Position numbers and translations under genes: made by a program. A DNA stretch of 64,000 nt from Roseibacillus sp. (GTDB lineage Bacteria; Verrucomicrobiota; Verrucomicrobiia; Verrucomicrobiales; Akkermansiaceae): positions 512,001 to 576,000 of the forward strand of contig JBPOGI010000001.1 in assembly GCA_051251855.1 (NCBI GenBank), in the 5' to 3' direction. The notes beneath the pieces were generated by a model. That model did not search any database. It was not told the origin of the DNA and saw only the letters and a list, made by a program, of their open reading frames with translations. Within the stretch, counting starts at the first letter, position 1, and every line of letters begins with the position of its first letter. Below, in pieces: positions 3,701 through 54,742 of this stretch.

Positions 3701-3701
3701 G

Positions 3702-4337: not shown

Positions 4338-4365
4338 CGCAAAATTGTTAGGGTGCACCTTGAGG

Positions 4366-22927: not shown

Positions 22928-23581
22928 TTAAAGAAGGCCCTTCCGGTAGCCTTTGGCTACGGCTGCAGGTGCGTTTTGGACCTGAAGCTTTTGATAGATG
23001 TGCTTAATGTGATAGGCGACCGTGGTAACTCCGATGTTGAGGTGGTTGGCTATTTCTTTTTTGACCATTCCTTCTCCTAGGAGAGAGAGAATTTCGAGTT
23101 CACGACCGGAGAGGGCCTTCTCGAGTTGGTTCTCGGTGGGACGTGTTCTCAGTTTGTTAAGAATGAATTGGGCGACACTGGGGTCGAGGGAGGCGCCGCC
23201 CTTAAACACAATCTTGATGGCGTCTTTGATTTGTTGGGCAGTGGCTGACTTGAGGAGGTAGCCCGAAGCGCCTAGGGATATGGCGGTGAGGACATCGCTT
23301 TCCTTGTCTGACTGGGTGAGGACAATGATCTTGGACTTGGCTGAATATTGTTTGAACCAGGGAATGGCTTCGAGACCAGACACTCCGGGAAGATTGAGGT
23401 CGAGGAGAAGGACGTCAGGGGCCTCGTTCTCAGTAAGCTTCTCAATCTCTCGGAGTGCGATTTCTGCTGTGCCGAATTGGTCGATTAGCTTGAGTTCAGA
23501 AGTGCTTCCGAGGGTACGGGTGATGACCTCCCGGTATCCGGCGTGATCTTCGATAAGCATGACTTTAATGGTTGCGGGCAT
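22928..23581 (-). CDS. NarL/LuxR-family DNA-binding response regulator
   Basis: LIEDH, LLDLNLPG (phospho-Asp), GASGYLLK; HTH LSGRELEIL...KKEIA..L...TV..HIKHIYQKL. Confidence 0.95.
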   Translation of the reverse strand: MPATIKVMLIEDHAGYREVITRTLGSTSELKLIDQFGTAEIALREIEKLTENEAPDVLLLDLNLPGVSGLEAIPWFKQYSAKSKIIVLTQSDKESDVLTAISLGASGYLLKSATAQQIKDAIKIVFKGGASLDPSVAQFILNKLRTRPTENQLEKALSGRELEILSLLGEGMVKKEIANHLNIGVTTVAYHIKHIYQKLQVQNAPAAVAKGYRKGLL

Positions 23582-23613
23582 GGTTTTGCTGGGTTGTTCG
23601 AAGCTCACTGGGT

Positions 23614-25968: not shown

Positions 25969-26015
25969 TGCCCCCTAAACAGGGGGTTGTTAAGAATAAT
26001 TTGAGCAGCTAATTT
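25969..26015 (+). promoter_or_regulatory. 20-bp palindromic box (copy 1) overlapping a sigma70-like promoter of the PEP-CTERM gene
   Basis: TGCCCCCTAAACAGGGGGTT at 25969-25988; TTGTTA (25987-92), 17 nt, TAATTT (26010-15). Confidence 0.7.
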
Positions 26016-27500: not shown

Positions 27501-27547
27501 TACCGTCTAAACGGGGGGTGGACAGACTTTGAGAAACGGCTGAGACT
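27501..27547 (+). promoter_or_regulatory. 20-bp palindromic box (copy 2) overlapping a -35-like hexamer
   Basis: TACCGTCTAAACGGGGGGTG at 27501-27520; TGGACA (27519-24), 17 nt, GAGACT (weak -10). Confidence 0.6.
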
Positions 27548-30295: not shown

Positions 30296-30475
30296 GAATA
30301 AGAAGCGCTTCTACGAAAGAGCAACTCGTGGAGAAATCGAAATCTGTCTCGTCAGAGTGCTGCGGCCCTGCGGGACAGATAATTTGAGAAATATGAAGGC
30401 TTAGAAGCCAGGCTAGGCAGAAGGGCTAGCTTTGCAGTGTTCAGAGTGCGCTTTCATCCAGACGAGAATAAAACC

Positions 30476-33524: not shown

Positions 33525-33572
33525 TACCCTCTAAACAGGGGGTTACGTGGGGATGCCAGTGCGTGCCATACT
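33525..33572 (+). promoter_or_regulatory. 20-bp palindromic box (copy 3) with an extended -10 promoter of the long sulfatase operon
   Basis: TACCCTCTAAACAGGGGGTT at 33525-33544; TTACGT (33543-48), 18 nt, TGc-CATACT (33567-72). Confidence 0.7.
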
Positions 33573-33632
33573 TGTGCTATATTCCAGGACCTTAGTCCGT
33601 AAATGACTACGTAGCCTACTTTGAGAATCCTT

Positions 33633-35099
33633 ATGAAACTTGGTCAATCCATCGAAATCTTCCGCAAGTCCTTTTCGTTTTTGCAACAAATCAGTCTGCA
33701 GCGTGGGGCGAGTCTTCTGGCCTCTTGTCTTCTTTTGCCGGTAGTGGGGGCATTTGCCGAAGAACGTCCGAATATTATCTTCATCTTCGCGGATGATTGG
33801 GGATATGGCGATGTGGGGATTCATGGGAGTACCTTTTGTGAGACGCCGCATCTCGACCAAATGGCGAAGGAGGGAATGGATTTTGCCAACTTTACAGTGA
33901 ATAGCCCAGTTTGCACGCCCAGCAGAGTCGCGGTGATGACGGGGCACTTTCCAGCGCGGCACTCGATTCATCAGCATTTCCAAGGAGTAAAGGCGCACAT
34001 CAAGCGGGGGATGCCAGATTGGCTGGATGCGGAGGTGACGATGTTACCGCGTCTCTTACAAGAGTCAGGATATAAGACGGGTCACTTTGGGAAGTGGCAT
34101 TTGGGGAGTTCGGGAGATTCTCCGACCGAGGATGCTTATGGCTACGATCGGTTTGCGACCTTCAATGGTTCTGGGGAAAACGAAATTCCTAAGGAGGGGT
34201 TGGCGTCGGTGGATCATGCTGAGAAATTTATCCGTGAGTTTAAGGATGAGACTTTCTTTGTGAATCTCTGGCTGCACGAGGCTCACTTGGCGCACTATCC
34301 TCAAGAGAGATACATGGAGCATTTTAAGGACCTAGATGAGCAGAAGCAGGTCTACGCCTCTATCATTGCGGAGGGAGACGAAGGGGTGGGACGGATTCTG
34401 ACTTTGCTGAAGGAGTTGGAAATCGACGAGAATACTTTGGTTGTTTTTTCGTCTGATAATGGCCCGGAGGCGACTCGAGATGAGAACGAGAAATTGCACA
34501 ATCTCAAAAAGGCGAAGGCGAAAGGGCAGCCTCATGACGGCGGTCTCGGTGGTTATTATTCGGTGGGTGAGAGTGGGGGCTTGAAGGGGAAGAAGAGATC
34601 GCTTTTTGCGGGAGGAGTTCGGGTGCCCTTTATCGTGCGATGGCCGGGAGTCGTTCCTGCGGGGAAGACGGACAAGAAGTCGGTCGTCACCGCGGTTGAT
34701 TTGTTGCCTACTTTTTTGGAGGTAGCGGGGGTGAAGTTGCCTGAGGGCTACGAGCCGGATGGAGAAAGCGCCTATTCAGCCTTCAAAGGAGAATCTTTTC
34801 AGAGGACCAAGCCTCTCTTTTGGGAATGGCGAGGAGGAAGCGAACAGCCCGACACTTGGCCTTCGCTGAGCGTACGTGACGGCAAGTGGATGTTGTTGCT
34901 CAATAAAGATGAGAAGAAGGCTGAACTCTACGATTTGGAGGCCGATTGGGCGCAGAAGAATGATTTGGCGGCCGAGAATCCAAGGAAGGTTTCCAAGCTC
35001 ACTAAGAAGATCGATGACTGGAAAGCGAGTTTGCCCACGCAACCTAGTAAGAATGCGCTTTCGAAAGCACGTAACAAGAAGACTAAAGATGCAAAATAA
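33633..35099 (+). CDS. S1 sulfatase (secreted)
   Basis: RPNIIFIFADDWGYGD, CTPSRVAVMTG, GKWHLG, SSDNGPE, GGVRVP. Confidence 0.95.
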   Translation: MKLGQSIEIFRKSFSFLQQISLQRGASLLASCLLLPVVGAFAEERPNIIFIFADDWGYGDVGIHGSTFCETPHLDQMAKEGMDFANFTVNSPVCTPSRVAVMTGHFPARHSIHQHFQGVKAHIKRGMPDWLDAEVTMLPRLLQESGYKTGHFGKWHLGSSGDSPTEDAYGYDRFATFNGSGENEIPKEGLASVDHAEKFIREFKDETFFVNLWLHEAHLAHYPQERYMEHFKDLDEQKQVYASIIAEGDEGVGRILTLLKELEIDENTLVVFSSDNGPEATRDENEKLHNLKKAKAKGQPHDGGLGGYYSVGESGGLKGKKRSLFAGGVRVPFIVRWPGVVPAGKTDKKSVVTAVDLLPTFLEVAGVKLPEGYEPDGESAYSAFKGESFQRTKPLFWEWRGGSEQPDTWPSLSVRDGKWMLLLNKDEKKAELYDLEADWAQKNDLAAENPRKVSKLTKKIDDWKASLPTQPSKNALSKARNKKTKDAK

Positions 35100-36585
35100 T
35101 CGAATTGTTGGAAACGTTATAGCCCTAGCACTTGTCGTTGGAGGTGAAATTACCTCTTTGGTTGCTGCTGAGTCCTTGAAGGGGTCAAAGCCCAATATCA
35201 TTCTCGTGATGACTGATGACCAAGGGATGGGCGACCTTTCCTGTATGGGCAACGAGGTGGTGAGGACTCCGAAGATTGATGCCTTCTTTGAAAAGGCGAC
35301 ACGTTTCACGGATTTTCAGGTGAGTCCTACATGTGCGCCGACGCGAGCGGCGATGATGAGCGGTCGAGTGGCCTTTAAGAATGGAGTGACCCATACCATC
35401 ATGCAGCGCGAGCGTATGGCGTTGGATACCTTTACTTTGCCACAGGCGCTCAAGACCGCTGGGTATGGAACTGGGATTTTTGGAAAGTGGCATCTTGGCG
35501 ACGAGGATGAGTATCTCCCGGGTAGCCGAGGCTTTGATGAAGTGTTGATTCATGGCTCAGGTGGGATTGGGCAGGTGCCTCTGGGGGACTTTCCTCCGAA
35601 TAAGGAGAACCTCTATTTCGACAATGTCCTGCTGCACAATGAGACGATCGTGAAGACGAAGGGCTACTGCACCGATTTGTTCTTTAAAGAAGCAATGGGA
35701 TGGGTTTGGAAGCAGCATGAAGCAAAGAAGCCTTACTTTGCCTACATCTCTTTGAATGCTCCTCATGCTCCCTTGGTGGCTCCTGAGAAATATACCCAAC
35801 GCTTTATTGACCTCGGATACGACAAGGGAACAGCTGGCCGCTATGGGATGGTGGAGAACATCGATGACAACTTTGGACTCTTGATGGACAAGTTGACTCA
35901 ATGGGAGGCGTTGGAGAATACCCTTGTGATCTTTATGACCGACAATGGAGCGACCCACCTCAGTGGAAAGCTCAATGGCAAAAAATTGAGGCACTTTAAT
36001 GCGAACTTGCGGGGCGGTAAGAACTCACCTTTTGAGGGCGGTTCTCATGTGCCTGCCTTTTGGCAATGGAAAGGGGTTTTGGATGAAGGAGTAGATATCG
36101 AGGCGCTCACCGCTCATATTGACCTCTATCCTACGTTTATAGAACTCGCGGGGGCGGAGCTTTCCGAGGAAATTCAGGAGATGGATGGCCGTTCTCTGCT
36201 TCCGCTGTTAGAAGACCCAAAGGCGGAGTGGGCGGACCGAGAACTCTTCTTTCATTGCGGGCGTTGGAATTCAGGCAAGCGCGAGGCGGCCAAGTTTGCC
36301 AAGTGTGCGGTGCGCACTGAGCAGTGGCGTTTGGTGAACAATAAGATGCTCTTTGATATCTCCAAGGACCCGAGTGAGACCACGGACATTTTTGCTGAGA
36401 ATCCTGAGGTAGTGGCGAAGCTTCAGAAGTCCTATGACGCTTGGTGGGAGTCCACCCTTCCGTTGATGGTGAATGAAGGGTTACCTAGGGTGGCCGCTGA
36501 AGACCAATCGCTTTCGATTCGTTACTACAAGCAGCTCGAGGAAAAGGGGATTCCGGACTATGAGCCTCATCTAGAAACTCCCTGA
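35089..36585 (+). CDS. S1 arylsulfatase (secreted)
   Basis: KPNIILVMTDDQG, CAPTRAAMMSG, GKWHLG, MTDNG; overlaps the upstream stop. Confidence 0.95.
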   Translation: MQNNRIVGNVIALALVVGGEITSLVAAESLKGSKPNIILVMTDDQGMGDLSCMGNEVVRTPKIDAFFEKATRFTDFQVSPTCAPTRAAMMSGRVAFKNGVTHTIMQRERMALDTFTLPQALKTAGYGTGIFGKWHLGDEDEYLPGSRGFDEVLIHGSGGIGQVPLGDFPPNKENLYFDNVLLHNETIVKTKGYCTDLFFKEAMGWVWKQHEAKKPYFAYISLNAPHAPLVAPEKYTQRFIDLGYDKGTAGRYGMVENIDDNFGLLMDKLTQWEALENTLVIFMTDNGATHLSGKLNGKKLRHFNANLRGGKNSPFEGGSHVPAFWQWKGVLDEGVDIEALTAHIDLYPTFIELAGAELSEEIQEMDGRSLLPLLEDPKAEWADRELFFHCGRWNSGKREAAKFAKCAVRTEQWRLVNNKMLFDISKDPSETTDIFAENPEVVAKLQKSYDAWWESTLPLMVNEGLPRVAAEDQSLSIRYYKQLEEKGIPDYEPHLETP

Positions 36586-36598
36586 GACAGAAAATTAG

Positions 36599-38767
36599 AT
36601 GAAGATAATTCTCACGGTAATCTTGATCTTGGCCGCTTTTTGCAGCTGTCATGGAGCTTCACCACGCGTTGATTTTTATCTGTCACCCAACGGCTCGGAT
36701 GATTGGTCGGGGACACGTGCTGAACCAAATCAACAGAGGACTGACGGACCCTTCGCTACTTTGGAGCGCGCTCGCGATGCCGTGAGGGTTTTGAAGAGGA
36801 GCAAAAGGAGAGACCTTCGGGTGCAAGTGAGAGGAGGGAACTATTCTCTGGAAAAGACAGTTGTCTTTGAACTCCAAGACTCGGGACGTGGAGAGGCAAA
36901 AGTCATCTACGAAGCATATCCTAACGAGAAGCCCATCTTTGATTCAGGACAGCCCATCACAAACTGGCGAAAGGTTACCACTACAATTCCGGGATTGCCT
37001 GAAAACGCTCAAGGGAAGGTCTGGGAAGCCGACGTTTCGAAGCAGTTTTTTACGCTGTATGATGAAGAGGGAATGCTACCGCGGGCGCGGTCGAAGGGAT
37101 TCATTCCGCTCAAAGGAAGCACTCGGGACCGTGTTATTTTTCCAAAGGGGATGTTGAAGGGGTGGGCCAACCTCAAGGACGTGGAAATTGTGGTGCGTCC
37201 GAACCATGCTTGGATCGTAAATATTCTTCCTGTCGTTTCAGTGGATGAAGAGAAGCAGCGAGCTGAATTGTCTGTGGAGTCTACCTATGTGATGTCTGAA
37301 CTTCATTTCTTAAAAGGGACAGAGTCTTGCTGGGTTGAAAACGTGGTGGAGGCCATTGATGAGCCTGGGGAGTGGGCTCTCAATACGGATGCGGGTAAAG
37401 TCTACCTATGGCCGCGTAATGATTCACCTCCAGTTCGAGTCTCTGCCCCTCGTCTGATGGAGTATATCAGGGTGGAAGGTCGTATCGACAAAGAGGGACC
37501 GAAGGATGCTCCCGTGAAAAACCTCTCCTTCCGAGGACTGACTTTCATCAATGGTGAACGCTATTCCATGAGAGCTGACGATGCTGGGCTTCAGCACGAT
37601 TGGGACTTTCACGACAAGGGCAATGCTTTGCTTCGCCTACGAGGAACGGAGAACTGCGCTGTGGAGAAGTGCCACTTTGCTCATAGCGGGGGCGGCGCTA
37701 TTCGAGTGGATCTACACGGACAGAAGAACATGATTTCGGGCAATGTTATCGAGCACATGGGCGGTACGGGAATTCTGCTTTGTGGTTATGGTCCTGGAAC
37801 GAAGGATGTGAATCACGATAATGTCGTATACAATAATCATATTCACCATCCGGGGCAGATTTATGCTCACTCGCCGGGTATTATGATTTGGCAGAGTGGT
37901 AAGAATCGAGTGGCGAATAATCTGGTGCATCATACTCCTTACACCGCGATTATTCTTTCAGGATGTGTCACCGAATTTTTCAAAAAAGATAAGGGGCGGG
38001 AAGTCGGCAGAACTATTCGGAGGCATGAGGTTCACAAGCTTCCAAAGGGCTATGGTTTGGAGGATGTGCGGCCCTACTTGCACACCAAAAGTAACCTTAT
38101 TGAGCTGAACGAGATTCATCATGCCATGGAGAAACTAGGCGATGGCAACGGGATCTATATTCGTGGCGCAGGGGCGGGGAACGTGATTCGGAAAAACTAC
38201 ATTCATCATCTTGTTGCCCCCATGATTATGCAGGCCGCAATCCGAACTGATGGCGGGCAGAAGGATACTTTGATTGCGGAGAATCTCATCTACAAATGCA
38301 CTTCTCAGGGAATTTTGATAAAGCTCAATAATCGTTGCGAGAACAACATCGTTGCGGACATCATCGCTCCACCTAGAGGTTACTATCTTTCGCTGCGCGA
38401 AGGGCCCATGGATGGCGCGACGATCCAGCGGAACATTCTTTACTCTTCGGGGACTGAAGTGACCTTTATGGATGAGTTGAACGCTCGGAAAAAGAATCCC
38501 TCGGAAGATCGACGGGGACGGGAAATCGCGCGGGCAAAGGACGCAGATACGGATTATAACCTCTATTTTTGCGCAGCTGATCCGACACTAAGTGATGAAT
38601 GGTTGCGTTCCCAAGTGGCTTTGGGGATGGACGAACATAGCTTGGCGACCGATCCGCTTTTTGTGGATGCGGACAATGGTGACTTTCGGTTTCAACCCGA
38701 TTCACCCGCACACAAGCTTGGGATCGTGCCAATTGACCTCACCCAAATCGGCTTAAGGGAGGAATGA
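36599..38767 (+). CDS. Right-handed parallel beta-helix glycosidase, GH141-like (putative alpha-L-fucosidase)
   Basis: FYLSPNGSDDWSG...GPFATLERARDAVR, RGGNY, YEAYPNEKP, WVEN..AIDEPGEW, Asn-ladder repeats, LGDGNGIY, IRTD, DPLFVDADNGDFRF. Confidence 0.75.
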   Translation: MKIILTVILILAAFCSCHGASPRVDFYLSPNGSDDWSGTRAEPNQQRTDGPFATLERARDAVRVLKRSKRRDLRVQVRGGNYSLEKTVVFELQDSGRGEAKVIYEAYPNEKPIFDSGQPITNWRKVTTTIPGLPENAQGKVWEADVSKQFFTLYDEEGMLPRARSKGFIPLKGSTRDRVIFPKGMLKGWANLKDVEIVVRPNHAWIVNILPVVSVDEEKQRAELSVESTYVMSELHFLKGTESCWVENVVEAIDEPGEWALNTDAGKVYLWPRNDSPPVRVSAPRLMEYIRVEGRIDKEGPKDAPVKNLSFRGLTFINGERYSMRADDAGLQHDWDFHDKGNALLRLRGTENCAVEKCHFAHSGGGAIRVDLHGQKNMISGNVIEHMGGTGILLCGYGPGTKDVNHDNVVYNNHIHHPGQIYAHSPGIMIWQSGKNRVANNLVHHTPYTAIILSGCVTEFFKKDKGREVGRTIRRHEVHKLPKGYGLEDVRPYLHTKSNLIELNEIHHAMEKLGDGNGIYIRGAGAGNVIRKNYIHHLVAPMIMQAAIRTDGGQKDTLIAENLIYKCTSQGILIKLNNRCENNIVADIIAPPRGYYLSLREGPMDGATIQRNILYSSGTEVTFMDELNARKKNPSEDRRGREIARAKDADTDYNLYFCAADPTLSDEWLRSQVALGMDEHSLATDPLFVDADNGDFRFQPDSPAHKLGIVPIDLTQIGLREE

Positions 38768-38778
38768 ACTGAGTTCGC

Positions 38779-41700
38779 ATGAGAGGTAAGAAAAATAGAG
38801 TAAGAGGAGTAGATCGGGACCGGGCCGGATTTTCGCTCATCGTAACGGTGACGGTGATGATTCTCCTCAGCCTGATCGCAGTCGGTTTACTTTCACTTTC
38901 GACCACGGTTTTGCGCAGCGCTACAAGTGACCGAGATAGGCAGCTGGCTCGTAGTAATGCGCGTTTGGCATTGATGTTGGCGATGGGTGAACTCCAAAAA
39001 TACGCAGGCCCGGATACACGCATCACGGCTCCTTCTGAATCGCTGGCGGGGGTCAATGGTTCACGCTTCGTCACGGGTGCTTGGCGGTCTTGGGAAGGAG
39101 AGGACCATGATCCTCGGACAGGTCAGCCTCTTCAGCCCGACTATGATTCAAAGGTGGAACCATACGATTCGGATAATTCGCTCGATGGACGCTTCCTAGG
39201 ATGGTTGCTCTCTGGGCCGGAGCAGGGAAACGGTGCGGAGTCACCGCCAAAGGTATCGGCCTCTGGTAAGTCGATTCCGATTCTCGGTCCGGGAACCCTT
39301 GGAAAGGGAACGGGCAAGGAAGTTCATCTAGAGCCAACGACTGTTGGTGAAGAGGGGGCCTACGCTTGGTGGGTGGAAGGGGAGAATGTGAAGTCTCTGA
39401 TCACTCATGATGGGGAAGAACTAGAAGAGGTTGAGGAATGGGCTGGGAGGTTGGCTTCGTATGGCCAGCCTCGTGTGGAGTCCTTCGGTCTCGCGGATTC
39501 AGTAGATTTGGCGAGTTCACCCAGCCGCAAGACTCTTGACCTAGCCGACAGCGGGGATGAAGAGGGGGGTGATGAAGGGAAGTCCGAAGGGGTGGGGAAA
39601 TACTTTCATGAACTCTCTGTTAGGAGTCGGGGCCTACTCACCAACTCGGCCAATGGTGGCTGGCGCCGAGACTTATCTCTTCTCACCGAGCAATGGCTGG
39701 ACGTCAAGGAGAGCCTTCAAGGGCCAGGAGGAACTGGACTATTTACATTGGCTCCGGGAGTGGAAGCGCCCATGAGCACTGCTGGTCTGATCTATCCTTG
39801 GGGGATGGAACAGGATTACTTGGTGATTGGAAGCGAGAAAAACAACAATATTTCGGAGGAGGGAGGCCCCTCTTCGAGTTGGGATGCCTTGGTTGATTTT
39901 GCGGGCCAATATAAAGAGGCTCAAGGTGGCGCTGGCGTGAGCTCGTTCTCGATTCGGCAGGGTGGGAGGGACGAGGTCGCACGACGGCCCATCATTACCC
40001 GCTTCCATTGGGTGTATTCCTTTGGTTCAGAGAGGCAAGGTGACGGCCAGTATCGAGCCTTTCTGAACGTCAACCCTGTCTTTACTTTTTGGAATCCCTA
40101 CAATGTAGAGATTGAGGACTTTGATCCTTTTGACATCCGCATTACTGAACCAATGCCCTATGGCCTCAGATTTAAAGTTGGGAACACAGTGCAGAATGCG
40201 TTCTTTCCTTTGGATAAACTGGCGAGAGATGGGGAGTTGACGATGAAGATCCAAGGTGCGGGTGGGGAACCTTGGCAGCCGGGAGAAGCTCGTCTCTATA
40301 GCGCGACTAGAGCTCTTGCGGCTAAAATAATACGAATGGAACGAGGCTTTCGAACGGACACGGGATTGAGGATACCGCTCTTTCGAAGTTATGAATCTAT
40401 TGCGGCAGGTAAATTTAAAGGAGTCGATGAACTCGTTGGAGCGGGAGCTGACCGGTTCTCCGTTGAAGTGCAAAAGTATGACGATGCTAAGTTCACCATC
40501 GAGTGCTACAAGGTGGGTGGCCATGAGATGAGCATGGAGATGCTCTATGTCCTGCCGCAGGACCTTACCGACTCCTTTTGGCCTGCCTTGGAAATCGTCA
40601 ATGATAGCGTAACCCTGAGGGATGTCGATGGAGGAGTCGATGGAGGCTCACCGTTTTTGGTCTCGATTATGCAGCACCGAGGAGTCTTTATTGAGTCGGA
40701 CAGGGAGTCGACAAGCACTCGTGGTTACTCGGACAATAAGTTCTTTGTGAATTTCACGAGTCCAAATACCTATAAAACGAATTACACACCGGAGAATTAC
40801 CCCGACGGATTCCCCTACGATTGGCTCTTCTTCACTCCCAACGATATTATCGATACCGAGGGGATGCCTCAGGCTGCGGGAAGTGATACTGATATTGGTT
40901 ACGTGGGAACGGGCTTTCGAGCGGATACAGGGTTGACCAGTTTAGTGACAGCCGAGTTGCCTTCTCGTCCTCTGAGTTCTCTGGGGGAGTTACAGCACTT
41001 TGATATTAGTAGCCATAACCCCTTCCCACCCTATACGTCGAATGCCGTTGGGAATAGTAGTGCCACCTTTGCGATAGCTCCAGACAAGGTCTATTCTGAA
41101 GAGGGAGCTCCGGAGGAACTGAGAACGGGATTCGATCATAGCTACGTTTCTAACCATCTTTTCTTCGATGATTGGTTCGTCTCTTCGATTGCCCCAGATG
41201 TTGTGGAGTCGCGCACCACCAAAGATGTCTACAATGAGTTCCTTACGGGAGAGAGGGACTTGCCCAATCACCTTTACCGTCCCGCCGAGGTTCAATCTTC
41301 GGCGAAGGCCAAGGAGAAGTCCGATGGATTGTTAGGAGATGACAAGGCTTGGGCTCAGATCGCTTCGGAGCTTGAGGTCGAGGGGATGTTCAATGTGAAC
41401 TCTACTTCCGTGGAGGCATGGTCTGCCCTGCTCAAGCACTTGCAGAATGCGAGTGTTCCTCAGATTGTGAATGAGGAAGACTCTTGGTCGATTGAGTTGG
41501 GGGAGGAAGAGGATCACCCGGTTACACGGACGACGATCACCGGAGACGCCAATGGACAGATCGATACTGACATCAGCCAGCTGGCCAGCCCGAGTCGCTT
41601 CACTGACCAGCAGATTGATGCGCTCGCTGAGGAGATCGTCCTACAGGTGAAAGAGAGAGGGCCGTTCCTCTCTCTTTCTGAGTTTGTAAACCGGAGGCTG

Positions 41701-42192
41701 ACGACTGAAGAAGACGCTAACCCCTTAGGGCTAGCTGGGGCGATAGAGACGGCTCTCGTAAGGCTTTCCGACAGACCTGAAGAAGAGAACCCTTTTAACG
41801 ATCTACAAGAGTTCTTTACGGCAAGGGTTAATGAGACGGTAGCAGTGGATCGCCCGTTTAATGAGGCTGCGCAGGGCTATCGGGCCTACGGTTTTCCTGG
41901 ATGGGCTCGCCAAGCAGATATCCTTAGGCCCCTAGCTCCTATTCTTTCGGTTCGCGATGATACCTTTGTGATTCGCGCCTATGGTGAGAGTCGGGACTCC
42001 TCAACTGGAACGGTTATGGCGCAAGCTTGGTGCGAGGCCGTGGTGCAACGTCGGGCAGATTATCTTGACCCAAACGCTGATGAGGCCACGGTTCTCCCTA
42101 GTGAGGAGACCTTGAATTCGAAGGTCAATCAGCGCTTTGGTCGTCGTTTTTCCATGGTCTCCTTCCGATGGTTAGCTCCAGGTGAGGTCTAA
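38779..42192 (+). CDS. Giant GspK/PilX-like minor pseudopilin (Verru_Chthon cassette protein A-like)
   Basis: Class III signal peptide, basic leader ...RAG|FSLIVTV with no Glu+5; ARSNARLAL..A.GELQKYAGPD; FNVNSTSVEAW; RGPFLSLSEFVNRR; DILRPLAPILSVRDDTFVIRAYG; FGRRF..VSFRWL. Confidence 0.75.
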   Translation: MRGKKNRVRGVDRDRAGFSLIVTVTVMILLSLIAVGLLSLSTTVLRSATSDRDRQLARSNARLALMLAMGELQKYAGPDTRITAPSESLAGVNGSRFVTGAWRSWEGEDHDPRTGQPLQPDYDSKVEPYDSDNSLDGRFLGWLLSGPEQGNGAESPPKVSASGKSIPILGPGTLGKGTGKEVHLEPTTVGEEGAYAWWVEGENVKSLITHDGEELEEVEEWAGRLASYGQPRVESFGLADSVDLASSPSRKTLDLADSGDEEGGDEGKSEGVGKYFHELSVRSRGLLTNSANGGWRRDLSLLTEQWLDVKESLQGPGGTGLFTLAPGVEAPMSTAGLIYPWGMEQDYLVIGSEKNNNISEEGGPSSSWDALVDFAGQYKEAQGGAGVSSFSIRQGGRDEVARRPIITRFHWVYSFGSERQGDGQYRAFLNVNPVFTFWNPYNVEIEDFDPFDIRITEPMPYGLRFKVGNTVQNAFFPLDKLARDGELTMKIQGAGGEPWQPGEARLYSATRALAAKIIRMERGFRTDTGLRIPLFRSYESIAAGKFKGVDELVGAGADRFSVEVQKYDDAKFTIECYKVGGHEMSMEMLYVLPQDLTDSFWPALEIVNDSVTLRDVDGGVDGGSPFLVSIMQHRGVFIESDRESTSTRGYSDNKFFVNFTSPNTYKTNYTPENYPDGFPYDWLFFTPNDIIDTEGMPQAAGSDTDIGYVGTGFRADTGLTSLVTAELPSRPLSSLGELQHFDISSHNPFPPYTSNAVGNSSATFAIAPDKVYSEEGAPEELRTGFDHSYVSNHLFFDDWFVSSIAPDVVESRTTKDVYNEFLTGERDLPNHLYRPAEVQSSAKAKEKSDGLLGDDKAWAQIASELEVEGMFNVNSTSVEAWSALLKHLQNASVPQIVNEEDSWSIELGEEEDHPVTRTTITGDANGQIDTDISQLASPSRFTDQQIDALAEEIVLQVKERGPFLSLSEFVNRRLTTEEDANPLGLAGAIETALVRLSDRPEEENPFNDLQEFFTARVNETVAVDRPFNEAAQGYRAYGFPGWARQADILRPLAPILSVRDDTFVIRAYGESRDSSTGTVMAQAWCEAVVQRRADYLDPNADEATVLPSEETLNSKVNQRFGRRFSMVSFRWLAPGEV

Positions 42193-42209
42193 ACCTATTC
42201 AATGATAAA

Positions 42210-42902
42210 ATGATAACTTTGAAGCTTCTATGGTCGATCGGATTGCTCTCCGTGCTCTTCTTCTCGGTGGACTCGGCACAAGGAGAACGGGTGGCGCGCA
42301 TCCTCTATTATGGTGCGCCGAAGGACGCTCCCGAGACGGCCTTCGTTCATCAGAAGGGCTCGAAAGTGCAGGAGGTGCCTCTCCCTCGAAACAATTTTTC
42401 GGAGTCCTTCGAGCTGGGCGCGGGTGCACTCCGGCTAGCCTTTTTTCCGTCTGAATCACTCGAAGAGATCGAGAATCCGGAAGCGGCTCCCTTCTTGGAT
42501 ATCCCCGAAGGTTGGGGGAAAGTGCTTATTCTTGTTTTTGAAGATCCGGATAACACGTTGCTACCAATCCGCTTGAAAGCCATCAATGCCAACGACAACC
42601 AGTTTGGCCCTGGGGACTTGTATTTCGTCAATTTTTCTAAGCGGACGATATTTGGGATGGTGGGGGACGAGAAGATGAATCTAAAACCAGAGGGGACGAC
42701 TATTGTATCCAGTCCTCGCAAAGCGAGAGGGGATTACAACGTGCAGTTGGACTCAGTGAAGGGAGAGGAAAAAGGCTCCCGGCGCTGGTTGCTGAGGCAA
42801 ACTTGGCGCCATCAACCAAGTGTGAGGAGAGTAGTTTTTGCAATACCTCTGCCTGCTCCTCGTAACATTAAACTCTATTCGGCACCCATTCGGAATTTCT
42901 GA
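42210..42902 (+). CDS. Hypothetical secreted beta-rich protein, putative partner of the pseudopilin-like gene
   Basis: Signal peptide; 230-aa ORF 17 bp downstream of the pseudopilin-like gene, same strand. Confidence 0.7.
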
Positions 42903-42927
42903 GCGAAGTGCCTCCCAATTTACCGAT

Positions 42928-43932
42928 ATGAAGAAGTCAAAAATTCTGCTGTTCACCCTATTCTTGATGCCCTGTTTCCTCTTTGCGGAGCAGGAAGCGC
43001 CTGTTTTGGATCCACCTGTAAAAAGGGAGAGAGGCAAAAAGGTGCAGTCTTACCTCAAGACAACAGGGGAGCAGAAGAGGGACCTTGTGTATAAAAAGAT
43101 TGGGCGACGTGAGTTGCAGCTGGACCTTTATTATCCTACCGCGAAACGTGAAGAGTCGTCGCCGGTCATTATCTATACTCACGGAGGAGGTTGGGCAGCG
43201 GGAAGTCGGGCCGGAGTGACGAAGGGTTTGTTTTCCAAGGTTTTCAGGGAACTTCTAGGAGAGGGCTTCTGCGTGGCCTCTGTTGATTATCGTCTTTACA
43301 ATAAAGGGGGGACGGTGGCGATGCGTGACTGTGTGATCGACTCCAAGGATGCGGTGCGCTACCTCGCTAAGAATGCGGAGTCGCTGGGTCTTGACTCGGA
43401 ACGCTTCTACGTGATGGGCGATTCGGCAGGGGGGCAAATTGCTCAAATGCTTTTACTGACTCCGCCAGAAAGTTTGACAGGAGACTTGGAACTTGCGGAT
43501 GCTCAATATCAAATTTTAGGTGGAGTGTCTTGGTATGGACCCTGTGACTTTGAGGATCAGAGTTTGTTTAATCACGATGATCGCCCGGATTTTAAGGACC
43601 GTTTTGGTCCAAGGATTGTGGTGTCAGAAGTGACTCCTGAAGAGAGATTGAAGCTCTATCGCGAGATGAGTCCTATCAATTTCCTGAAGAAGGACAGCCC
43701 TCCCTTACTCATGATTCAAGGGGATAGCGACACCACCATTCCGGTGAAGCACGCGCACTACATGAAGAAAAGGGCTCTAGAGCTGAAGGCACCCGTGGAG
43801 GTTCTCATCGTTAAAAATTCAGGCCACAATTGGCGGAAGGTGGGGGCGGAGATTGAACCGTCGAGGGAGGATATTCTTGCGGAGACTGTTCGATTCTTTG
43901 TGGGGCATGAGAAGAGTTCGTCGAAAGATTGA
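42928..43932 (+). CDS. Secreted alpha/beta-hydrolase (carboxylesterase, HSL/BD-FAE-like)
   Basis: HGGGW, VDYRL, GDSAGG, SPI, QGDSD, GH. Confidence 0.9.
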
Positions 43933-43967
43933 GCCTTCTTTCCCAGTTGAGATTGGGACACTTCCTC

Positions 43968-45731
43968 ATGAATTTTTATCGTAAATCTTTAAGGCTGTTT
44001 TTTACTCTGGGCCTTCTGTTTATCATGGGCTCAACGGCACAGTCCAAGGAGCAACCCAACGTGATTTTGATCATGACGGATGATCAGGGCTACGGTGATG
44101 TGGGGATCCATGGGAATCCGATTTTGAAGACCCCTGAGCTGGACAAGCTACACGGGGAGTCGGTTCGCTTTACGGACTTCCACGTCAGCCCCTTTTGCAC
44201 GCCGACGAGAGCAGCCTTGATGACGGGGCGTTATCCGGCTCGAACGGGGGCCTATCGGACGAGTTCGGGGCGCACTATGATGCATACCGATGAGCGTACG
44301 ATTGCGAATGTTTTTGCGGATAATGGATATCTTACTGGGATGTTCGGAAAGTGGCACTTAGGAGACAACGCTCCGCACCGGCCTCAGGATCGAGGATTTC
44401 AAGATGTGGTTTGGCATCGCTGTGGCGGGATTGGGCAGTCTTCTGATTACTGGGGGAATGATTACTTTGATGATACCTATGAGCGGGTGCGCCCGGGGAG
44501 TCAGGAAGGCTCTTTCGAAAAGTTTGAGGGTTACTGCACGGATGTCTTTTTTAGGGAAGCGATTCGTTTCGTGGAGGAGAGTAAGGATAAGCCCTTTTTC
44601 CTCTATCTACCACTGAACGCGCCGCATGGTCCTTACTTTGTGGCACCGGAGTGGTCTGAGCCGTATAAGAAGACGTCAGAAGGGAAGCCCTTTGCGAACT
44701 TCTTCGGGATGATTGCCAACTTTGATCATAACGTGGGTTTGCTGCGCCAGCGATTGGAGGCGTTGGAATTGGCTGAGGATACCATCTTGATTTTTATGAC
44801 CGATAACGGCACGTCCGCTGGAGCCAAGTTCAAGGGCTTGGACTCGGAGGCGGTGCTGGGATTCAACGCGGGGATGCGCGGGAAGAAATCTTCTCATTAT
44901 GAAGGCGGGCATCGGGTTCCTTTTTTCATTCATTGGCCAAAGGGGGGCTTGGTGGGGGGCCGTGATGTGCTCTCGATGAGCGCTCATATCGATGTCTTGC
45001 CGACCTTGGCAGAACTTTGTGGTATCGAGGTTCCAGAGTCTCACCAGCCAGATGGAATTTCCTTTAAGGAGGTGTTGGAGAATCCTGAGGCTCCTCCTCA
45101 TCGCGATCATCTCATTGTGCAGTTTCAAGGAGGACCCCATTTCAAGTCGGAGGCTGAGCCTTGGACTTCGAGTTGTGTGATCCAAGAGAACTGGAGGCTG
45201 ATGGATGGAATGGAGCTCTACGATATGAGTTCGGATTTTGCCCAACGCAACGATATTGCTGCGGAGCATCCTGACAAGGTGGCGGCTTTGCGTGAGCTTT
45301 ACTTGCCGTTTTGGGCGTCGGTTTCTCCTCGAATGACGCCGGTTTCAATCGATGTGGGGAATCCCAGCGAGAATCCCACGACTCTTTGTTCGCAGGATTG
45401 GTATATGCCCACTGGGAATCCACCGTGGAATTTTAGAGAGATTCAACGACTTCCGCGAAGAACGGGTCCTTGGCATGTCGATGTGAAGAAGGCGGGTAAG
45501 TATCGCCTCACGTTGAGGCAATTTCCCAAGGAAGCGGGTAGGGAAGTGGTCGCGGTACGGGCACGCGTCGAGATTGCCGGGCTGGAGAAAGAGGTCACGG
45601 TGGAGGCTGGTAGCCAAGGGGTGGTCTTGGAGATGGAGCTGCCGGCTGGGAAGACGCAGTTGGTGACTTACCTGTATGATGAAAAGGGTAAGGCTGGAGG
45701 CGCGTATTTCACAGAGGTGGAGGCACTTTAG
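43968..45731 (+). CDS. S1 arylsulfatase with a C-terminal beta-domain (secreted)
   Basis: PNVILIMTDDQGYGD, CTPTRAALMTG, GKWHLG, MTDNG, EGGHRVP. Confidence 0.95.
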   Translation: MNFYRKSLRLFFTLGLLFIMGSTAQSKEQPNVILIMTDDQGYGDVGIHGNPILKTPELDKLHGESVRFTDFHVSPFCTPTRAALMTGRYPARTGAYRTSSGRTMMHTDERTIANVFADNGYLTGMFGKWHLGDNAPHRPQDRGFQDVVWHRCGGIGQSSDYWGNDYFDDTYERVRPGSQEGSFEKFEGYCTDVFFREAIRFVEESKDKPFFLYLPLNAPHGPYFVAPEWSEPYKKTSEGKPFANFFGMIANFDHNVGLLRQRLEALELAEDTILIFMTDNGTSAGAKFKGLDSEAVLGFNAGMRGKKSSHYEGGHRVPFFIHWPKGGLVGGRDVLSMSAHIDVLPTLAELCGIEVPESHQPDGISFKEVLENPEAPPHRDHLIVQFQGGPHFKSEAEPWTSSCVIQENWRLMDGMELYDMSSDFAQRNDIAAEHPDKVAALRELYLPFWASVSPRMTPVSIDVGNPSENPTTLCSQDWYMPTGNPPWNFREIQRLPRRTGPWHVDVKKAGKYRLTLRQFPKEAGREVVAVRARVEIAGLEKEVTVEAGSQGVVLEMELPAGKTQLVTYLYDEKGKAGGAYFTEVEAL

Positions 45732-45747
45732 GGAGAGAGATTTTAAG

Positions 45748-47154
45748 ATGATAAATTTGATAACACGATTCAAGACAGGCCGCGTGCTGAGCACAGCCTT
45801 TGGGGCCTTAATTTTGGCCAATGGAGCGACTGCCAAAGACAAGGTGAAAGAGAAGGAAACTTCGAAGCCGAACTTCGTGATCGTAGTCGCCGACGATATG
45901 GGGTGGGGGGATTCAGGAACTTATGGCAATGAGCTGATTAAGACTCCTAACATGGATCGTATGGCGGCCAAGGGAGTGAAGTTTACGCAATGCTACTCGG
46001 CGTGCGGAGTTTGCTCGCCCTCGCGCTCGGCGATTCTCACCGGACGTACCCCGTATCGGAATGGAGTGTGGCGGCACTTGTCGGGTAATCATGAAGCGCA
46101 TTTGCGGGAGAGTGAGATTACCTATCCAGAGCTTCTCAAAACGAAGGGGTATGAGACCTGTCACGTAGGAAAGTGGCATTTGCTTTCTAAAAATCAGTTC
46201 AACAATCCTGATTACCCTCAGCCGGGGGACCATGGCTACGACTACTGGATGTATACCCAGAACAACGCCATCCCGAGTCACAAGAACCCGAACAATTTCT
46301 TCAGAAATGGAGAGGCGGTTGGGGAGACCGAGGGATATTCTGCGCAATTGGTCGCAGCTGAGGCTGGGCATTGGTTGAAAGAGGTGCGTGATTCCAGTAA
46401 GCCTTTTGCACTTTCGATTTGGTTTCATGAACCACACTCACCCATTGCCACGGATTCTAAATTTCAAGGTCTCTACAAAGGGCACAAGAATGCAAAGTAT
46501 ATGGGAAATATCACCCAGTTAGACAATGCGTTGGGGATGGTGCTGGATGCCTTGGAAGAGCAGGGAGTGAGTGATAACACGCTCGTTTTTTTCACATCTG
46601 ACAACGGGCCTGTTCCAAGCTTTGGCGGCTCTGCGGGAGGTCTACGTGGTAACAAACGTAGCGAGTACGAGGGTGGTATTCGAGTGCCTGGTCTTGCGTG
46701 CTGGCCTGGTAAGATTGAGCCCGGAAGCGTGAGCGAGGTTCCTGTGGTTGGAACGGACGTGTTCAGCACAGTACTAGACATCGTAGGCGTGCCGCTTCCT
46801 GAGGATCGCACCATCGATGGCGCGAGTATGATTCCTGCCTTCACAGGGAAGCCGATTGAGAGGAAGGTTCCTCTCTTCTGGCGGACACATGTTTCAGGAC
46901 CAGAGGACCGGGTGGCGATGCGTATTGGTGACTGGAAGATTGTGGCTGACGAGACTTTGACCAAGTTCCAACTGTTTGAAGTTCAAAAGGACTGGAAGGA
47001 AGAGACCGACCTAGCCGCTGAAAACCCTGAGAAGACAGAAGAGATGAAGGTGAAGCTCCTGAAGCTCTGGGAAGAAATCAAAGAAGAAGGTCCCAACGAG
47101 TGGTGGGAGTCATCAACGCAAAAGCCCAAGAAGGGTGGAAAGATGAGCTACTAA
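45748..47154 (+). CDS. S1 sulfatase (secreted)
   Basis: KPNFVIVVADDMGWGD, CSPSRSAILTG, GKWHL, TSDNGP, YEGGIRVP. Confidence 0.95.
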   Translation: MINLITRFKTGRVLSTAFGALILANGATAKDKVKEKETSKPNFVIVVADDMGWGDSGTYGNELIKTPNMDRMAAKGVKFTQCYSACGVCSPSRSAILTGRTPYRNGVWRHLSGNHEAHLRESEITYPELLKTKGYETCHVGKWHLLSKNQFNNPDYPQPGDHGYDYWMYTQNNAIPSHKNPNNFFRNGEAVGETEGYSAQLVAAEAGHWLKEVRDSSKPFALSIWFHEPHSPIATDSKFQGLYKGHKNAKYMGNITQLDNALGMVLDALEEQGVSDNTLVFFTSDNGPVPSFGGSAGGLRGNKRSEYEGGIRVPGLACWPGKIEPGSVSEVPVVGTDVFSTVLDIVGVPLPEDRTIDGASMIPAFTGKPIERKVPLFWRTHVSGPEDRVAMRIGDWKIVADETLTKFQLFEVQKDWKEETDLAAENPEKTEEMKVKLLKLWEEIKEEGPNEWWESSTQKPKKGGKMSY

Positions 47155-48566
47155 TGATGAAGGCTTCAGCGCTTTCGAAAATTGTAATAGCGCTGGGGCT
47201 TTGTTTGTTTGCGAAGGCGGGTGCGGAACCCGAGAAGCCTAATGTCGTTCTTATTATGGCGGATGACGTCAGCTGGGAGGCTTTTGGTTGTTATGGGGCG
47301 GTGGATTATGAAACGCCTAATCTCGATCGTTTGGCGGCGGAGGGGGTGCGATTTGAGCACTGTTATTCCACCCCGATTTGCACCACTTCGCGGGTGATGC
47401 TCATGACTGGAGAAGAGAACTTTCGGAACTATACTCATTTCGGTTACCTCGATCCTGAGGAGAAGACGATTGGTCACCTCATGAAGGAGGCAGGCTACAA
47501 GACCGCGATTGCGGGTAAGTGGCAGTTGAGCGGCCTTTATAACAAAGACGAGTTCGCGGACCATCAAGATGTCACGCGTCCGAATCGGGCGGGTTTCGAT
47601 GAGTATTGCCTTTGGCAGCTGACGAAGGGGAAGGAGCTCGGGGAACGCTTTTGGAGTCCGCCCTTAGAGAAGAATGGGGAATTTCTGACAGCGGAAGAGA
47701 ATCAGGGAAAGTATGGTCCGGATCTCTTTCGTGATTTTATCTGTGATTTCATGGAGCGAAATCGAGAGGAGCCTTTCTTTGTCTACTATCCGATGGTGCT
47801 GGTTCACGATCCTTTTTTACCAACACCTGATAGTATTGGTGAGTCCGGCCTAGGTAAGGGGAGCAAGAAGGGGACAGGGAAACAGAGCGTAGAAGTGAAA
47901 AAGCGCAACTTCGTCGCGATGGTTCGATATATGGACAAAATTGTGGGACAGATTTTTGATAAGATCGATGAACTTGGCGAGCTCGAGAACACTCTCATTC
48001 TTTTTACGGCGGATAATGGTACTGACCGAAGGATCACCTCAAATTGGAATGGGCGTAGCATCCGAGGAGGAAAGGGAGGGATGAAGAATAGCGGAACTCA
48101 TGTGCCTTTGATTGCTTTTTGGAAAGGGCAGTCGGAGCAGGGACTCGAGTGTCAGGACTTGGTTCAGTTTAATGACTTCTACCCTACTCTTGCGGAGCTG
48201 GCAGGGCTCGAGCTTGATGAAGACGATCCCAAGAGTGGGCAGAGCTTTTTGCCTCAGGTTTTGGGGGAGGAGGGGGAGTCCCGTCAGTTTGTGCTTTGCC
48301 ATTACCAGCCTTATTGGGGAGCGAGCGTGAATGCAGGAGCTTTCGTGCGAACGGAGCGCTTCAAGCTCTATGACGATGGTCGCTTCTACGACGTGTCTCA
48401 TGATTTGGAAGAAGAGAAGAATTTCGCAGAGGCTCTTGAAGGGGAGGAGGTCATCGAGGCTTACCAGTATCTTTCGAAGCTCATTGAAAAAATTCCTCCG
48501 GTGCCGAAAGGTAGTAGAAAGAGTCGAAATCGGCCCGTTCATGCTGATTGGCCACTTGTGAAATAA
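47154..48566 (+). CDS. S1 sulfatase with a non-canonical CTTSR motif (secreted)
   Basis: [45 protein letters not shown] coupling to the upstream gene. Confidence 0.92.
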
Positions 48567-48570
48567 CTTT

Positions 48571-50112
48571 ATGAAAATGTATTCAATCCTTCAAAGTCCT
48601 CAGAAAATGGCGGCGCTCGTTGTTGTGGGCTTTATTAGCTTAAGCAGCGCAGGGGCGGCAGAGCGGCCTAATATTATTTATCTGATGGCGGATGATCAGA
48701 ATATCTTGTCGGTGGGTGCATACGGTAATGATGAGGTGCAGACCCCGGAGATGGATAAGCTGGCGGCGGAGGGAGTGACCTTTGACCGGCACTACAATAC
48801 CACTGCGATTTGTATGGCGAGTCGAGGGAACGTTTTCACCGGAATGTATGAATACCGGACGGGCACGAACTTCAATCATGGCGATATGAAGCCTGAGATT
48901 TGGGCGAAGACTTATCCCGTGCTCTTGCGTGAGGCGGGGTATTTTACGGGGTTTGCTGGCAAGTTTGGGATGGATGTCATTGGTTTGGGCGAGGGGAAGA
49001 AGAATGCTGGGCTGCCAGCAGAAGACTTTGATGTTTGGGCTGGTTCTCCTGGGCAGACCTCCTATGCGACCAGGCAGAACGAATCGATGAGGAAGTATGC
49101 GGAGAAGTATCCTCACTCGACTTTGTCCTATGGTGCCTTTGGGCAGGATTTCATTCGTGAGGCGGCGAAGCAGGAGAAGCCCTTTTGCTTGTCGATTAGC
49201 TTTAAGGCTCCTCATCAGCCGACGACGCCAGACCCTCGGTTTGACGATGTCTACAAGGGGAAGACGTTCACTAAACCCGAGAATTATGGTCGCGAAAAGG
49301 GCGAGCACCTCTCGCCGCAAAGTAAGATGGGGCGTCAGTATGAACGCTTTATCTCTTGGAAATACGACAGCGATTACGACCGAGTGATGGCGACCTATTA
49401 CCAACAGGTGTATGGAATTGATGTTGCGGTTGGGATGATTCGTGAGGAGCTGGAGGCGCAGGGGTTGGCTGATAATACGGTCATTATTTATACCAGTGAC
49501 AATGGTTTTATTTGCGGTTCTCACGGATATGGTTCGAAGGTGTTACCGATGGAAGAATCTTCTCGTGCGCCTCTGATGATTGTGGACCCACGCAGTTCTT
49601 CGGCAGGGAAGAAGCTTCGAAGTGGGGTCTTGACTGGCAATGTGGACTTTATGCCAACCATTATGGAGTTGGCAGGTTTGCCTGTTCCGGATGGGCTGGA
49701 TGGAGTGAGCCTTTTGCCTTTGTTAGAGGAGCCAGATAAGGACCTTCGAGAGGAAATGGCGTTCATCAATGTTTATGGGCCCGATCCAACTAAGTCCCTC
49801 ACTGTTTTGACCAAGACGGTGAAGTATACTTATTGGTGGTTTGGAAGTGAGGAGATGGAGCCGGCGGAGGAGCTCTTTGACTTGGCTGAGGATCCTCTTG
49901 AGTTGACGAATCTAGCAGGAAGTGAAGAGGCGGCGGCCAAGCTGGAGGTGATGCGTCAGGAGTATGATAGACAGCTGGCTCTCTGGAAAAAGCATGCCGA
50001 TAAGGAAGGCGCCTACGCAAAGTATGGCACTCTCTTTGACCGCTCCATTCCTTGGCAGGAGAAGACGAAACTTATGAAGCGAAAACGCAAAGCTGAAAAG
50101 GCTTCGCGGTAG
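48571..50112 (+). CDS. S1 sulfatase with a CMASR motif (secreted)
   Basis: [60 protein letters not shown]. Confidence 0.92.
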
Positions 50113-54652: not shown

Positions 54653-54742
54653 TCCGATTTTTGTTGGCTATCTGGCCTCGTGATCCCCCTTTAGCTTCCT
54701 TCGAAATTAAGCGTGTTCTAGCAATTGAAAATATCCAGACCC

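What the first reader, a model, noticed from the sequence alone, without database searches (positions are those of the whole stretch)
38779..42902. Orphan giant GspK/PilX-like pseudopilin plus partner embedded among glycan enzymes: possible substrate-specific tip of a Sus-independent foraging system
Seen: a 1137-aa protein with a prepilin-peptidase-type site (G|FSLIV, no Glu+5), GspK-like N- and C-terminal blocks and a long central region. It lies 11 bp after the GH141-like gene and is followed by a 230-aa secreted protein, then the esterase and four sulfatases. No secretin, ATPase, platform protein or other pilin is in the window. Known: E5-less GspK/PilX proteins cap T2SS/T4P filaments and contact cargo; Verru_Chthon cassette A proteins are multi-copy and of unknown function; pilus-like genes are implicated in Akkermansia mucin uptake. 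Inference: each glycan locus supplies its own interchangeable tip that plugs into a shared T2SS/T4P machine, either to export the co-regulated CTD proteins or to capture polysaccharide in place of SusC/D. The shared 20-bp operator supports co-regulation. This is the best candidate for an undescribed system here.
Basis: partly seen in the sequence, partly recalled or inferred. Interest (0 to 1): 0.8.

Follow-up and report, generated by a model that had tools for sequence, protein, structure and literature searches.

The report
Swappable giant pilus-tip pair, Verrucomicrobia
A seaweed-sugar enzyme operon carries one of nine copies of a gene pair, a giant protein whose predicted structure matches the cap subunit of type IV filaments and a small partner predicted to bind it, which likely plugs into one shared set of minor pilins encoded elsewhere and may help the cell grip its polysaccharide food.

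Summary
Observation confirmed. The 1137-aa protein (A) has a prepilin site without Glu+5; its model (pLDDT 90) best matches XcpX/GspK (Z 12.7/11.9), with a ~580-aa variable insert. The 230-aa partner (B, tandem transthyretin-like) follows 9 of 9 paralogues here and 81 of 84 elsewhere, and is predicted to bind A's insert (0.87; best control 0.00). So A-B is likely an exchangeable cap for a shared MUL2-type filament. The glycan link is strong for this clade (sulfatases 0.91 vs 0.20 per 10 kb; GH29; three-copy operator) but partial family-wide (9 of 18 vs 4 of 18 loci, p=0.08). No CTD enrichment; SusC/D replacement untested. Not a TIGR02600 member. No paper found describing it; this scan noted the pair on other DNA six times.

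The parts
38779..42192 (+). Protein A: 1137-aa GspK-family cap (pseudo)pilin; class III signal G17|F18, no Glu+5; helix 20-76; core sheet closed in cis by strand 1122-1132; insert about 285-865 with a beta-sandwich (405-633) and the predicted B-binding loops (524-527, 607-624, 688-704, 714-717)
42210..42902 (+). Protein B: 230-aa partner, N-terminal hydrophobic helix (signal peptide judged by eye), two transthyretin-like beta-sandwiches (PepT2 extracellular domain / AlgF C-domain-like); predicted to bind A through strands 191-209 and 217-229
33529..33543 (+). Operator-like motif, copy 3, upstream of the ten-gene co-oriented operon 33621-50112 that contains A and B
27505..27519 (+). Operator-like motif, copy 2, before the 888-aa PATR/CTD protein
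25973..25987 (+). Operator-like motif, copy 1, before the 244-aa PEP-CTERM protein
22928..25575 (-). NarL/LuxR-type response regulator and sensor kinase; candidate regulator of the motif (inferred from position only)
33621..38767 (+). Upstream operon genes: two sulfatases and a beta-helix (GH141-like) protein
42928..50112 (+). Downstream operon genes: BD-FAE esterase and four sulfatases

Best explanation
A is a GspK-fold pilin carrying a large variable insert, B is its gene-linked partner predicted to bind that insert, and the pair likely serves as one of nine exchangeable caps for a single K-less H/I/J pilin trio on the cell's MUL2-type type IV filament, with this copy likely tuned to attach the cell to a sulfated fucose-rich glycan. 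Steps: (1) shown: fold model, missing Glu+5, pairing with B, co-location and shared motif with sulfatases and a GH141-like gene. (2) Predicted: B clamps onto A's insert by strand contacts, pair-specifically. (3) Inferred: A is cleaved by the genome's prepilin peptidase, closes its own core sheet in cis like GspK, is recognised by the I-J pair of the orphan trio through its conserved N-helix and C-terminal block, and primes the filament. (4) Inferred by elimination: the filament passes an Amuc_1098-type secretin. (5) Least certain: the variable head binds glycan or glycan-coated surfaces when the locus is induced, holding or pulling substrate to the cell; transport across the outer membrane itself is not explained.
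For: Fold: XcpX 5vtm_X Z 12.7 (207 aligned, rmsd 3.1), GspK 3ci0_K Z 11.9 (231 aligned, rmsd 3.4), next ComZ Z 5.1, of 48,161 chains. 0 of 116 full-length members with a recognisable site have Glu+5. Paralogues keep 59-75% identity in the N-helix and 35-54% in the last 137 aa, but 9-21% in residues 301-725. B follows 9 of 9 own paralogues, 81 of 84 A genes with room in 79 loci, 16 of 18 in G304; A and B identities track (Spearman 0.855, null max 0.14; shared ancestry, 89 pairs). Complex score 0.87, best of 3 controls 0.00; mark reached by 116 of 157 solved and 2 of 215 mismatched pairs; runs share at least 92% of contacts; partner pLDDT at least 88. No Glu5 pilin near A in 86 of 87 loci. K-less trio at C7:135143-137535; no K gene after J in 30 of 30 loci and 5 more; unlinked to any A in 5 fully scored genomes. 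Trio, A and B in one operon in L129-L132. 47 of 49 genomes with a strong trio-J match have an A match. Five small genomes of genus g2 have two secretins each, both Amuc_1098-type, and no GspK over cut-off; the two weak GspK hits fall in A genes. Prepilin peptidase present. Window clade: 37 sulfatases in 406 kb of flank, GH29 in 8 of 26 loci. MUL2 and fucoidan uptake in this family: PMC13174399 (whole main text read).
Against: No glycan-binding fold or site was identified in the insert (only Z 2-3 Ig-like matches; atlas gives only hypothetical proteins). Family-wide glycan link is modest: own genome 5 of 8 other paralogues within 10 kb of a sulfatase vs 30% background, p=0.057, and 2 of 8 within 5 kb, p=0.47; G304 9 of 18 vs 4 of 18 random windows, p=0.08; sulfatases alone 4 of 18 vs 3 of 18; sister clade 0.16 sulfatases per 10 kb. 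Several modules sit at housekeeping positions shared between G000 and G304. The genome has five secretin genes, a separate T2SS and a second trio, so the partner trio and machine are assigned by synteny and elimination in relatives, not by a binding test. Co-occurrence follows clades and is not independent; the J profile was built partly from those genomes. A folded ~1,350-residue cap must pass a secretin; not tested.
Confidence: 0.5

Rival explanations
1. A-B is a substrate-selective cap of a periplasmic pseudopilus that recruits co-expressed enzymes (or CTD/PATR proteins) for export through a secretin, as GspK contacts cargo in type II secretion.
For: Closest solved folds are T2SS GspK/XcpX and the terminal strand is supplied in cis as in T2SS (PMC13533445 passages). 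A-B is co-transcribed with signal-peptide-bearing enzymes; two CTD proteins lie within 10 kb and one shares the motif. An extra B lies directly behind a 1261-aa sulfatase with no A.
Against: About 124 CTD-like proteins in the genome show no enrichment near A (5 of 9 within 10 kb vs 42% background, p=0.31); the operon's own enzymes lack the CTD; the classical T2SS has its own 321-aa GspK; g2 genomes keep A and the trio without GspD or GspK.
Confidence: 0.2
2. A-B caps are general surface adhesins or receptor-diversifying tips (particles, host surfaces, other cells, phage avoidance); this copy was captured by the glycan locus and is co-expressed but does not recognise the glycan.
For: About half of G304 modules and several own paralogues lie among housekeeping genes; copy number runs from 1 to several dozen; heads are hypervariable.
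Against: The window clade stays with sulfatase/GH29/GH141-like loci across genomes whose record titles span Akkermansiaceae and Opitutales; hydrolase/lyase/CBM genes flank 6 of 18 G304 modules vs 1 of 18 random windows (p=0.044, one-sided).
Confidence: 0.2
3. The filament retracts and pulls bound polysaccharide through the secretin into the periplasm, fully replacing SusC/D, as competence pili do for DNA.
For: No SusC over cut-off and only 6 TonB-dependent barrel matches in a genome with 99 sulfatases; PilT-like ATPases present; intracellular fucoidan accumulation in marine Akkermansiaceae (PMC13174399); third-best fold match is the competence tip pilin ComZ (Z 5.1).
Against: Far more glycan loci than modules; no binding or transport data; PMC13174399 assigns MUL2 to attachment.
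Confidence: 0.1

Closest known systems
GspK / XcpX, cap minor pseudopilin of type II secretion (PDB 3ci0_K, 5vtm_X; NF037980)
   Same: No Glu+5, long N-helix, core sheet closed by its own C-terminal strand, inserted alpha-domain; best structural match
   Different: 1137 vs about 320 aa, with a ~580-aa variable insert; no NF037980 hit; encoded away from H/I/J; 9 paralogues; obligate secreted partner
Verru_Chthon cassette A-D (TIGR02600, 02598, 02599, 02596)
   Same: Giant K-like pilin with three small pilins in Verrucomicrobiota, multi-copy, function unknown; UniRef names some A relatives after it
   Different: Only the N-terminal helix matches (18 bits vs 332); here the trio is single-copy and the K-partner pair is what multiplies
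T4aP FimU-PilV-PilW-PilX-PilY1 tip complex; three alternative clusters in Myxococcus xanthus (PMC7541494); two PilC on one core in Kingella (PMC13711793, listing only)
   Same: Gene order H-I-J-K-secreted partner in joined operons; alternative tips on one machine; partner predicted to dock with its last strand
   Different: Roles reversed: the variable bulk is in K, the partner is small and not a beta-propeller, and docks on the insert, not the core sheet
Modular tip pilins: Streptococcus sanguinis PilA-PilC glycan-binding complex (PMC9934059), Thermus ComZ (6qvi), cyanobacterial PilX (PMC13759059)
   Same: Large domain grafted on a cap pilin; a partner that stabilises it; glycan binding shown for PilC
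   Different: No sequence similarity tested or found; no lectin fold identified here; no such dispersed multi-copy family described
MUL2 pilus-like system of Akkermansiaceae (Amuc_1098-1102; PMC13174399)
   Same: Present in this genome (C9:326-334 kb); linked to mucin and fucoidan use; likely the machine
   Different: Its tip is not described in the text read; A, B and the trio are not mentioned in main text or the two supplements searched

Membership tests
GspK/PilX cap pilins | Class III signal ending in Gly, no Glu at +5 | tested here: met
   G17|FSLIV; 0 of 116 members with Glu+5
GspK/PilX cap pilins | Pilin fold with alpha-domain and terminal strand in cis | tested here: met
   Predicted model; 231 of 280 GspK residues aligned, model range 46-1137, Z 11.9
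T2SS GspK (NF037980, PF21687) | Profile score over cut-off | tested here: not met
   No hit for A or its 8 paralogues
T2SS GspK (NF037980, PF21687) | Encoded with gspHIJ and the T2SS core | tested here: not met
   No pilin nearby in 86 of 87 loci; joined with H/I/J, not with a secretin, in L129-L132
GspK/PilX cap pilins | Binds I-J and sits at the filament tip; cleaved by prepilin peptidase | not testable with these tools
Verru_Chthon cassette protein A (TIGR02600) | Score over 332.3 bits | tested here: not met
   18.1 bits, residues 17-75 only; paralogues 14.6-21.1 or none
Verru_Chthon cassette protein A (TIGR02600) | Adjacent cassette proteins B, C, D | tested here: not met
   None adjacent; the distant trio matches TIGR02599/8/6 only below cut-off
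PilY1/PilC tip adhesins (for B) | C-terminal beta-propeller, about 1,000 aa or more | tested here: not met
   B is 230 aa, two beta-sandwiches
PilY1/PilC tip adhesins (for B) | Last strand completes the K core sheet | tested here: inconclusive
   B 217-229 contacts A 688-693 in the insert; the core sheet was outside the folded range 281-1062
AlgF / DUF4397-like tandem transthyretin fold (for B) | Pfam match | tested here: not met
   0 of 94 members match; fold match AlgF C-domain Z 8.8, atlas 0.78-0.79 is a lead only
SusC/SusD | TonB-dependent barrel plus glycan-binding lipoprotein in the locus | tested here: not met
   None in the 44 window ORFs; no SusC over cut-off in the genome
Glycan-binding pilus tip | Measured glycan binding | not testable with these tools
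   Context only

The most novel reading that the evidence does not exclude
Akkermansiaceae, including gut members, and many other Verrucomicrobiota run one retractile MUL2-type pilus with a single H/I/J base and a library of up to dozens of interchangeable giant K-partner caps, each induced with its own glycan locus, so that substrate recognition for polysaccharide foraging is done by a swappable pilus tip instead of SusC/D.
Probability: 0.3. Interest if true: 0.9.

Novelty: new variant of a known kind. Interest (0 to 1): 0.68.

Why it matters
How Verrucomicrobiota recognise and take up fucoidan and mucin without SusC/D is open. MUL2 has been proposed as the attachment machine, but nothing read here names its tip. 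This work points to specific genes (one K-less trio, a family of A-B caps with a predicted interface, and an operator-defined regulon) that make the question testable by knockout and binding assays. It is also an unusual design among type IV filaments: variation is carried by a multiplied cap subunit rather than by PilY1 or by duplicated whole clusters.

Tried and rejected
TIGR02600 and GspK HMM membership failed. Pfam gives nothing for A or B. CTD and PEP-CTERM enrichment near A: none. The C6 cassette's 1106-aa K-like and 225-aa secreted proteins show no profile similarity to A or B (probability 0.3). The operator motif was not found enriched near related two-component loci (1 loose match in 16 such loci): it is locus-specific. 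A first control set of 20 G304 windows was picked by hand after I had seen the sulfatase list, held 0 sulfatases, and was discarded; a seeded random set replaced it. Amuc_1098-type secretins occur in 214 of 301 genomes, too wide to profile against A. No RNA holder listed for the stretch. No Akkermansia-named hit among the best 120 trio-J relatives, so identity of the trio with Amuc_1523-24 is untested. Paper searches for Verru_Chthon gave 0; searches listed nothing describing this pair. Davey 2023 and Hughes 2025 are not held and bioRxiv supplements are closed; these may bear on novelty.
Full report
OBSERVATION. The genes are as described: A, 38779-42192, 1137 aa, with leader ending G17|FSLIV; B, 42210-42902, 230 aa. 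They lie inside a co-oriented run of ten genes (33621-50112): six sulfatases, a beta-helix protein with a weak GH141_M hit, a BD-FAE esterase, A and B. None of the 44 window ORFs scanned is a secretin, ATPase, platform protein or Glu5 pilin. A genome-wide scan found five core matches, three of them these. A NarL-type two-component pair lies next to the first copy; that it binds the motif is inference.

PROTEIN A. With 118 relatives the model has pLDDT 90.2, pTM 0.91. Foldseek found nothing, but alignment to 48,161 chains gave XcpX (Z 12.7, 207 aligned, rmsd 3.1) and GspK (Z 11.9, 231 aligned, rmsd 3.4), then ComZ (5.1) and other pilins. The match spans residues 46-1137, so N- and C-terminal blocks form one GspK-like core whose last strand is supplied in cis, the arrangement described for T2SS GspK in PMC13533445 (abstract and passages read). 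Between them lies an insert of about 580 residues with a beta-sandwich (405-633) that has only Z 2-3 Ig-like matches. None of 116 full-length members with a recognisable site has Glu+5. A is not a TIGR02600 member (18 bits vs 332). A profile finds 5,754 clusters at 50% identity (3,786 at E<=1e-30; fragments included).

PROTEIN B. Model pLDDT 93.7: an N-terminal helix and two transthyretin-like sandwiches, closest to the PepT2 extracellular domain (Z 12.6, 180 aligned) and the AlgF C-domain (Z 8.8); no Pfam family in 94 members. B directly follows 9 of 9 own paralogues, 81 of 84 A genes with room in 79 loci, and 16 of 18 in G304. Folding A 281-1062 with B 24-230 scored 0.87 against 0.00 for the best of three controls; the mark was reached by 116 of 157 solved and 2 of 215 mismatched pairs, runs share at least 92% of contacts, partner pLDDT at least 88. 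This supports binding; it does not show it. The interface uses poorly conserved segments of A, which fits pair-specific partners.

WHICH MACHINE. The genome has five secretin genes, eight T2SS/T4P ATPases, a prepilin peptidase and at least 13 Glu5 pilins: a T2SS with its own 321-aa GspK, a MUL2 locus, a further cluster on C8, a complete trio-K-partner cassette on C6 unrelated to A and B by profile, and an H/I/J-like trio at C7:135143-137535 with no K gene on either side. This trio is conserved: no K follows J in 30 of 30 loci read (1.5 kb flanks) or in 5 more, and J is unlinked to every A match in five fully scored genomes. Conversely no Glu5 pilin lies near A in 86 of 87 loci. In four loci read from other families (L129-L132) A, B and two to four detected Glu5 pilins, including a J match at E 1e-20 to 1e-35, share an operon; in 18 genomes picked from the hit lists J lies 0.4-5.6 kb from an A-profile match, ten of them in frames of only 405-630 aa. 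Of 301 genomes, 49 have a strong J match (E<=1e-40), one each, and 47 of these have an A match (only 2 and 7 candidates scored per genome, and kin are not independent). Paralogues conserve the N-helix (59-75%) and C-block (35-54%) but not the head (9-21%), as expected for one dock and many heads. Genus g2 (22 small genomes of the same family, probably Akkermansia by inference) has the trio in 22 and A in 21; five examined have only two secretins, both Amuc_1098-type, and no GspK over cut-off, and three examined have seven pilins with a single trio. B there is divergent (E 3e-5 and 0.008 in two loci). Hence the inference: one trio, many caps, a MUL2-type machine.

GLYCAN LINK. In a tree of 104 A proteins (FastTree, midpoint root) the window's clade (support 0.98; 26 loci) has 37 sulfatases in 406 kb of flank (0.91 per 10 kb vs 0.20 in this genome), GH29 in 8, GH95 in 3 and close homologues of the GH141-like gene in 4; record titles span Akkermansiaceae and Opitutales, hinting at transfer with the locus (not tested). 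The sister clade (45 loci, many freshwater) has 0.16 per 10 kb and no GH29, though GH78/GH106 occur. Family-wide the link is weaker: own genome 6 of 9 within 10 kb of a sulfatase vs 30% (p=0.024), 5 of 8 without the window gene (p=0.057), 3 of 9 within 5 kb (p=0.24). In G304, 9 of 18 modules vs 4 of 18 random 12-kb windows have a sulfatase, hydrolase, lyase or CBM (p=0.08), 6 vs 1 without sulfatases (p=0.044); 89 of 108 and 98 of 107 neighbours were scanned and module flanks were slightly longer. CTD-like (about 124) and PEP-CTERM (84) genes are not enriched near A. The genome has no SusC over cut-off and six TonB-barrel matches.

MECHANISM AND LITERATURE. Best reading (0.5): an inducible, exchangeable cap that primes the shared filament and attaches the cell to its glycan; sub-claims: K-family tip bound by B about 0.9, C7 trio about 0.75, MUL2-type secretin about 0.6, glycan recognition about 0.5. 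PMC13174399 (whole main text; two supplements searched, 0 hits) proposes MUL2-mediated attachment and shows fucoidan uptake but does not mention these genes. A preprint (10.64898/2025.12.30.696933, passages) states that pili proteins Amuc_1523-24, 1583, 0394 and 0745 are needed for colonisation; whether they are the trio is untested. Precedents for alternative tips: PMC7541494 (passages), PMC13759059 (abstract); for a glycan-binding modular tip pilin: PMC9934059 (abstract and opening). PMC11685898 (passages) reports T2SS upregulation on fucoidan in a planctomycete, which keeps the export rival alive. Nine searches found no description of this pair; two key Akkermansia papers were not available.

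VERDICT. A real, widespread and apparently undescribed variant of the type IV filament tip. The scan noted the pair six times on other DNA; what is added here is the K-less trio, the joined operons, the elimination to Amuc_1098-type secretins, the operator and the clade-level fucan association. Function remains untested. Interest 0.68.

Noticed in passing
L095:4215-8821 (G000 C1:1557-1562 kb): A B-family gene with no A, directly behind a 1261-aa sulfatase carrying PKD/Ig and PATR repeats; may mean B can act on other proteins or that an A was lost.
   Followed up: partly
L006:7179-8660: Two B genes in tandem behind one A; also seen in L035 and L079.
   Followed up: no
L089:5677-11694 (G000 C6): Second, complete cassette: three Glu5 pilins, a 1106-aa K-like protein and a 225-aa secreted protein; same layout as the joined A-B operons but no profile similarity.
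   Followed up: partly
L091:3925-14816 (G000 C8): A further type IV filament cluster with its own secretin, two ATPases, platform protein and two small pilins.
   Followed up: no
L093:3916-6609 (G000 C8): Three tandem GspG-like pilins of 247-305 aa; candidates for major pilins of the shared filament.
   Followed up: no
genome-wide; window 27629-30295, 30437-33451, 54725-57325: About 124 proteins share a C-terminal ~80-aa domain ending in an F(F/Y)R-type motif, found with a home-made profile; a possible sorting domain, pathway unknown.
   Followed up: partly
window 3666-6428: Methyltransferase, FAD monooxygenase and type III polyketide synthase in one run.
   Followed up: no
window 3-2987: 994-aa open frame, cut by the window edge, with no Pfam or NCBIfam match.
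   Followed up: no
L019, L064, L047; G294: Tandem arrays of up to four A-B pairs; 61 profile matches in one complete genome, some apparently split or with internal stops.
   Followed up: no
L138: B lies upstream of A instead of downstream.
   Followed up: no
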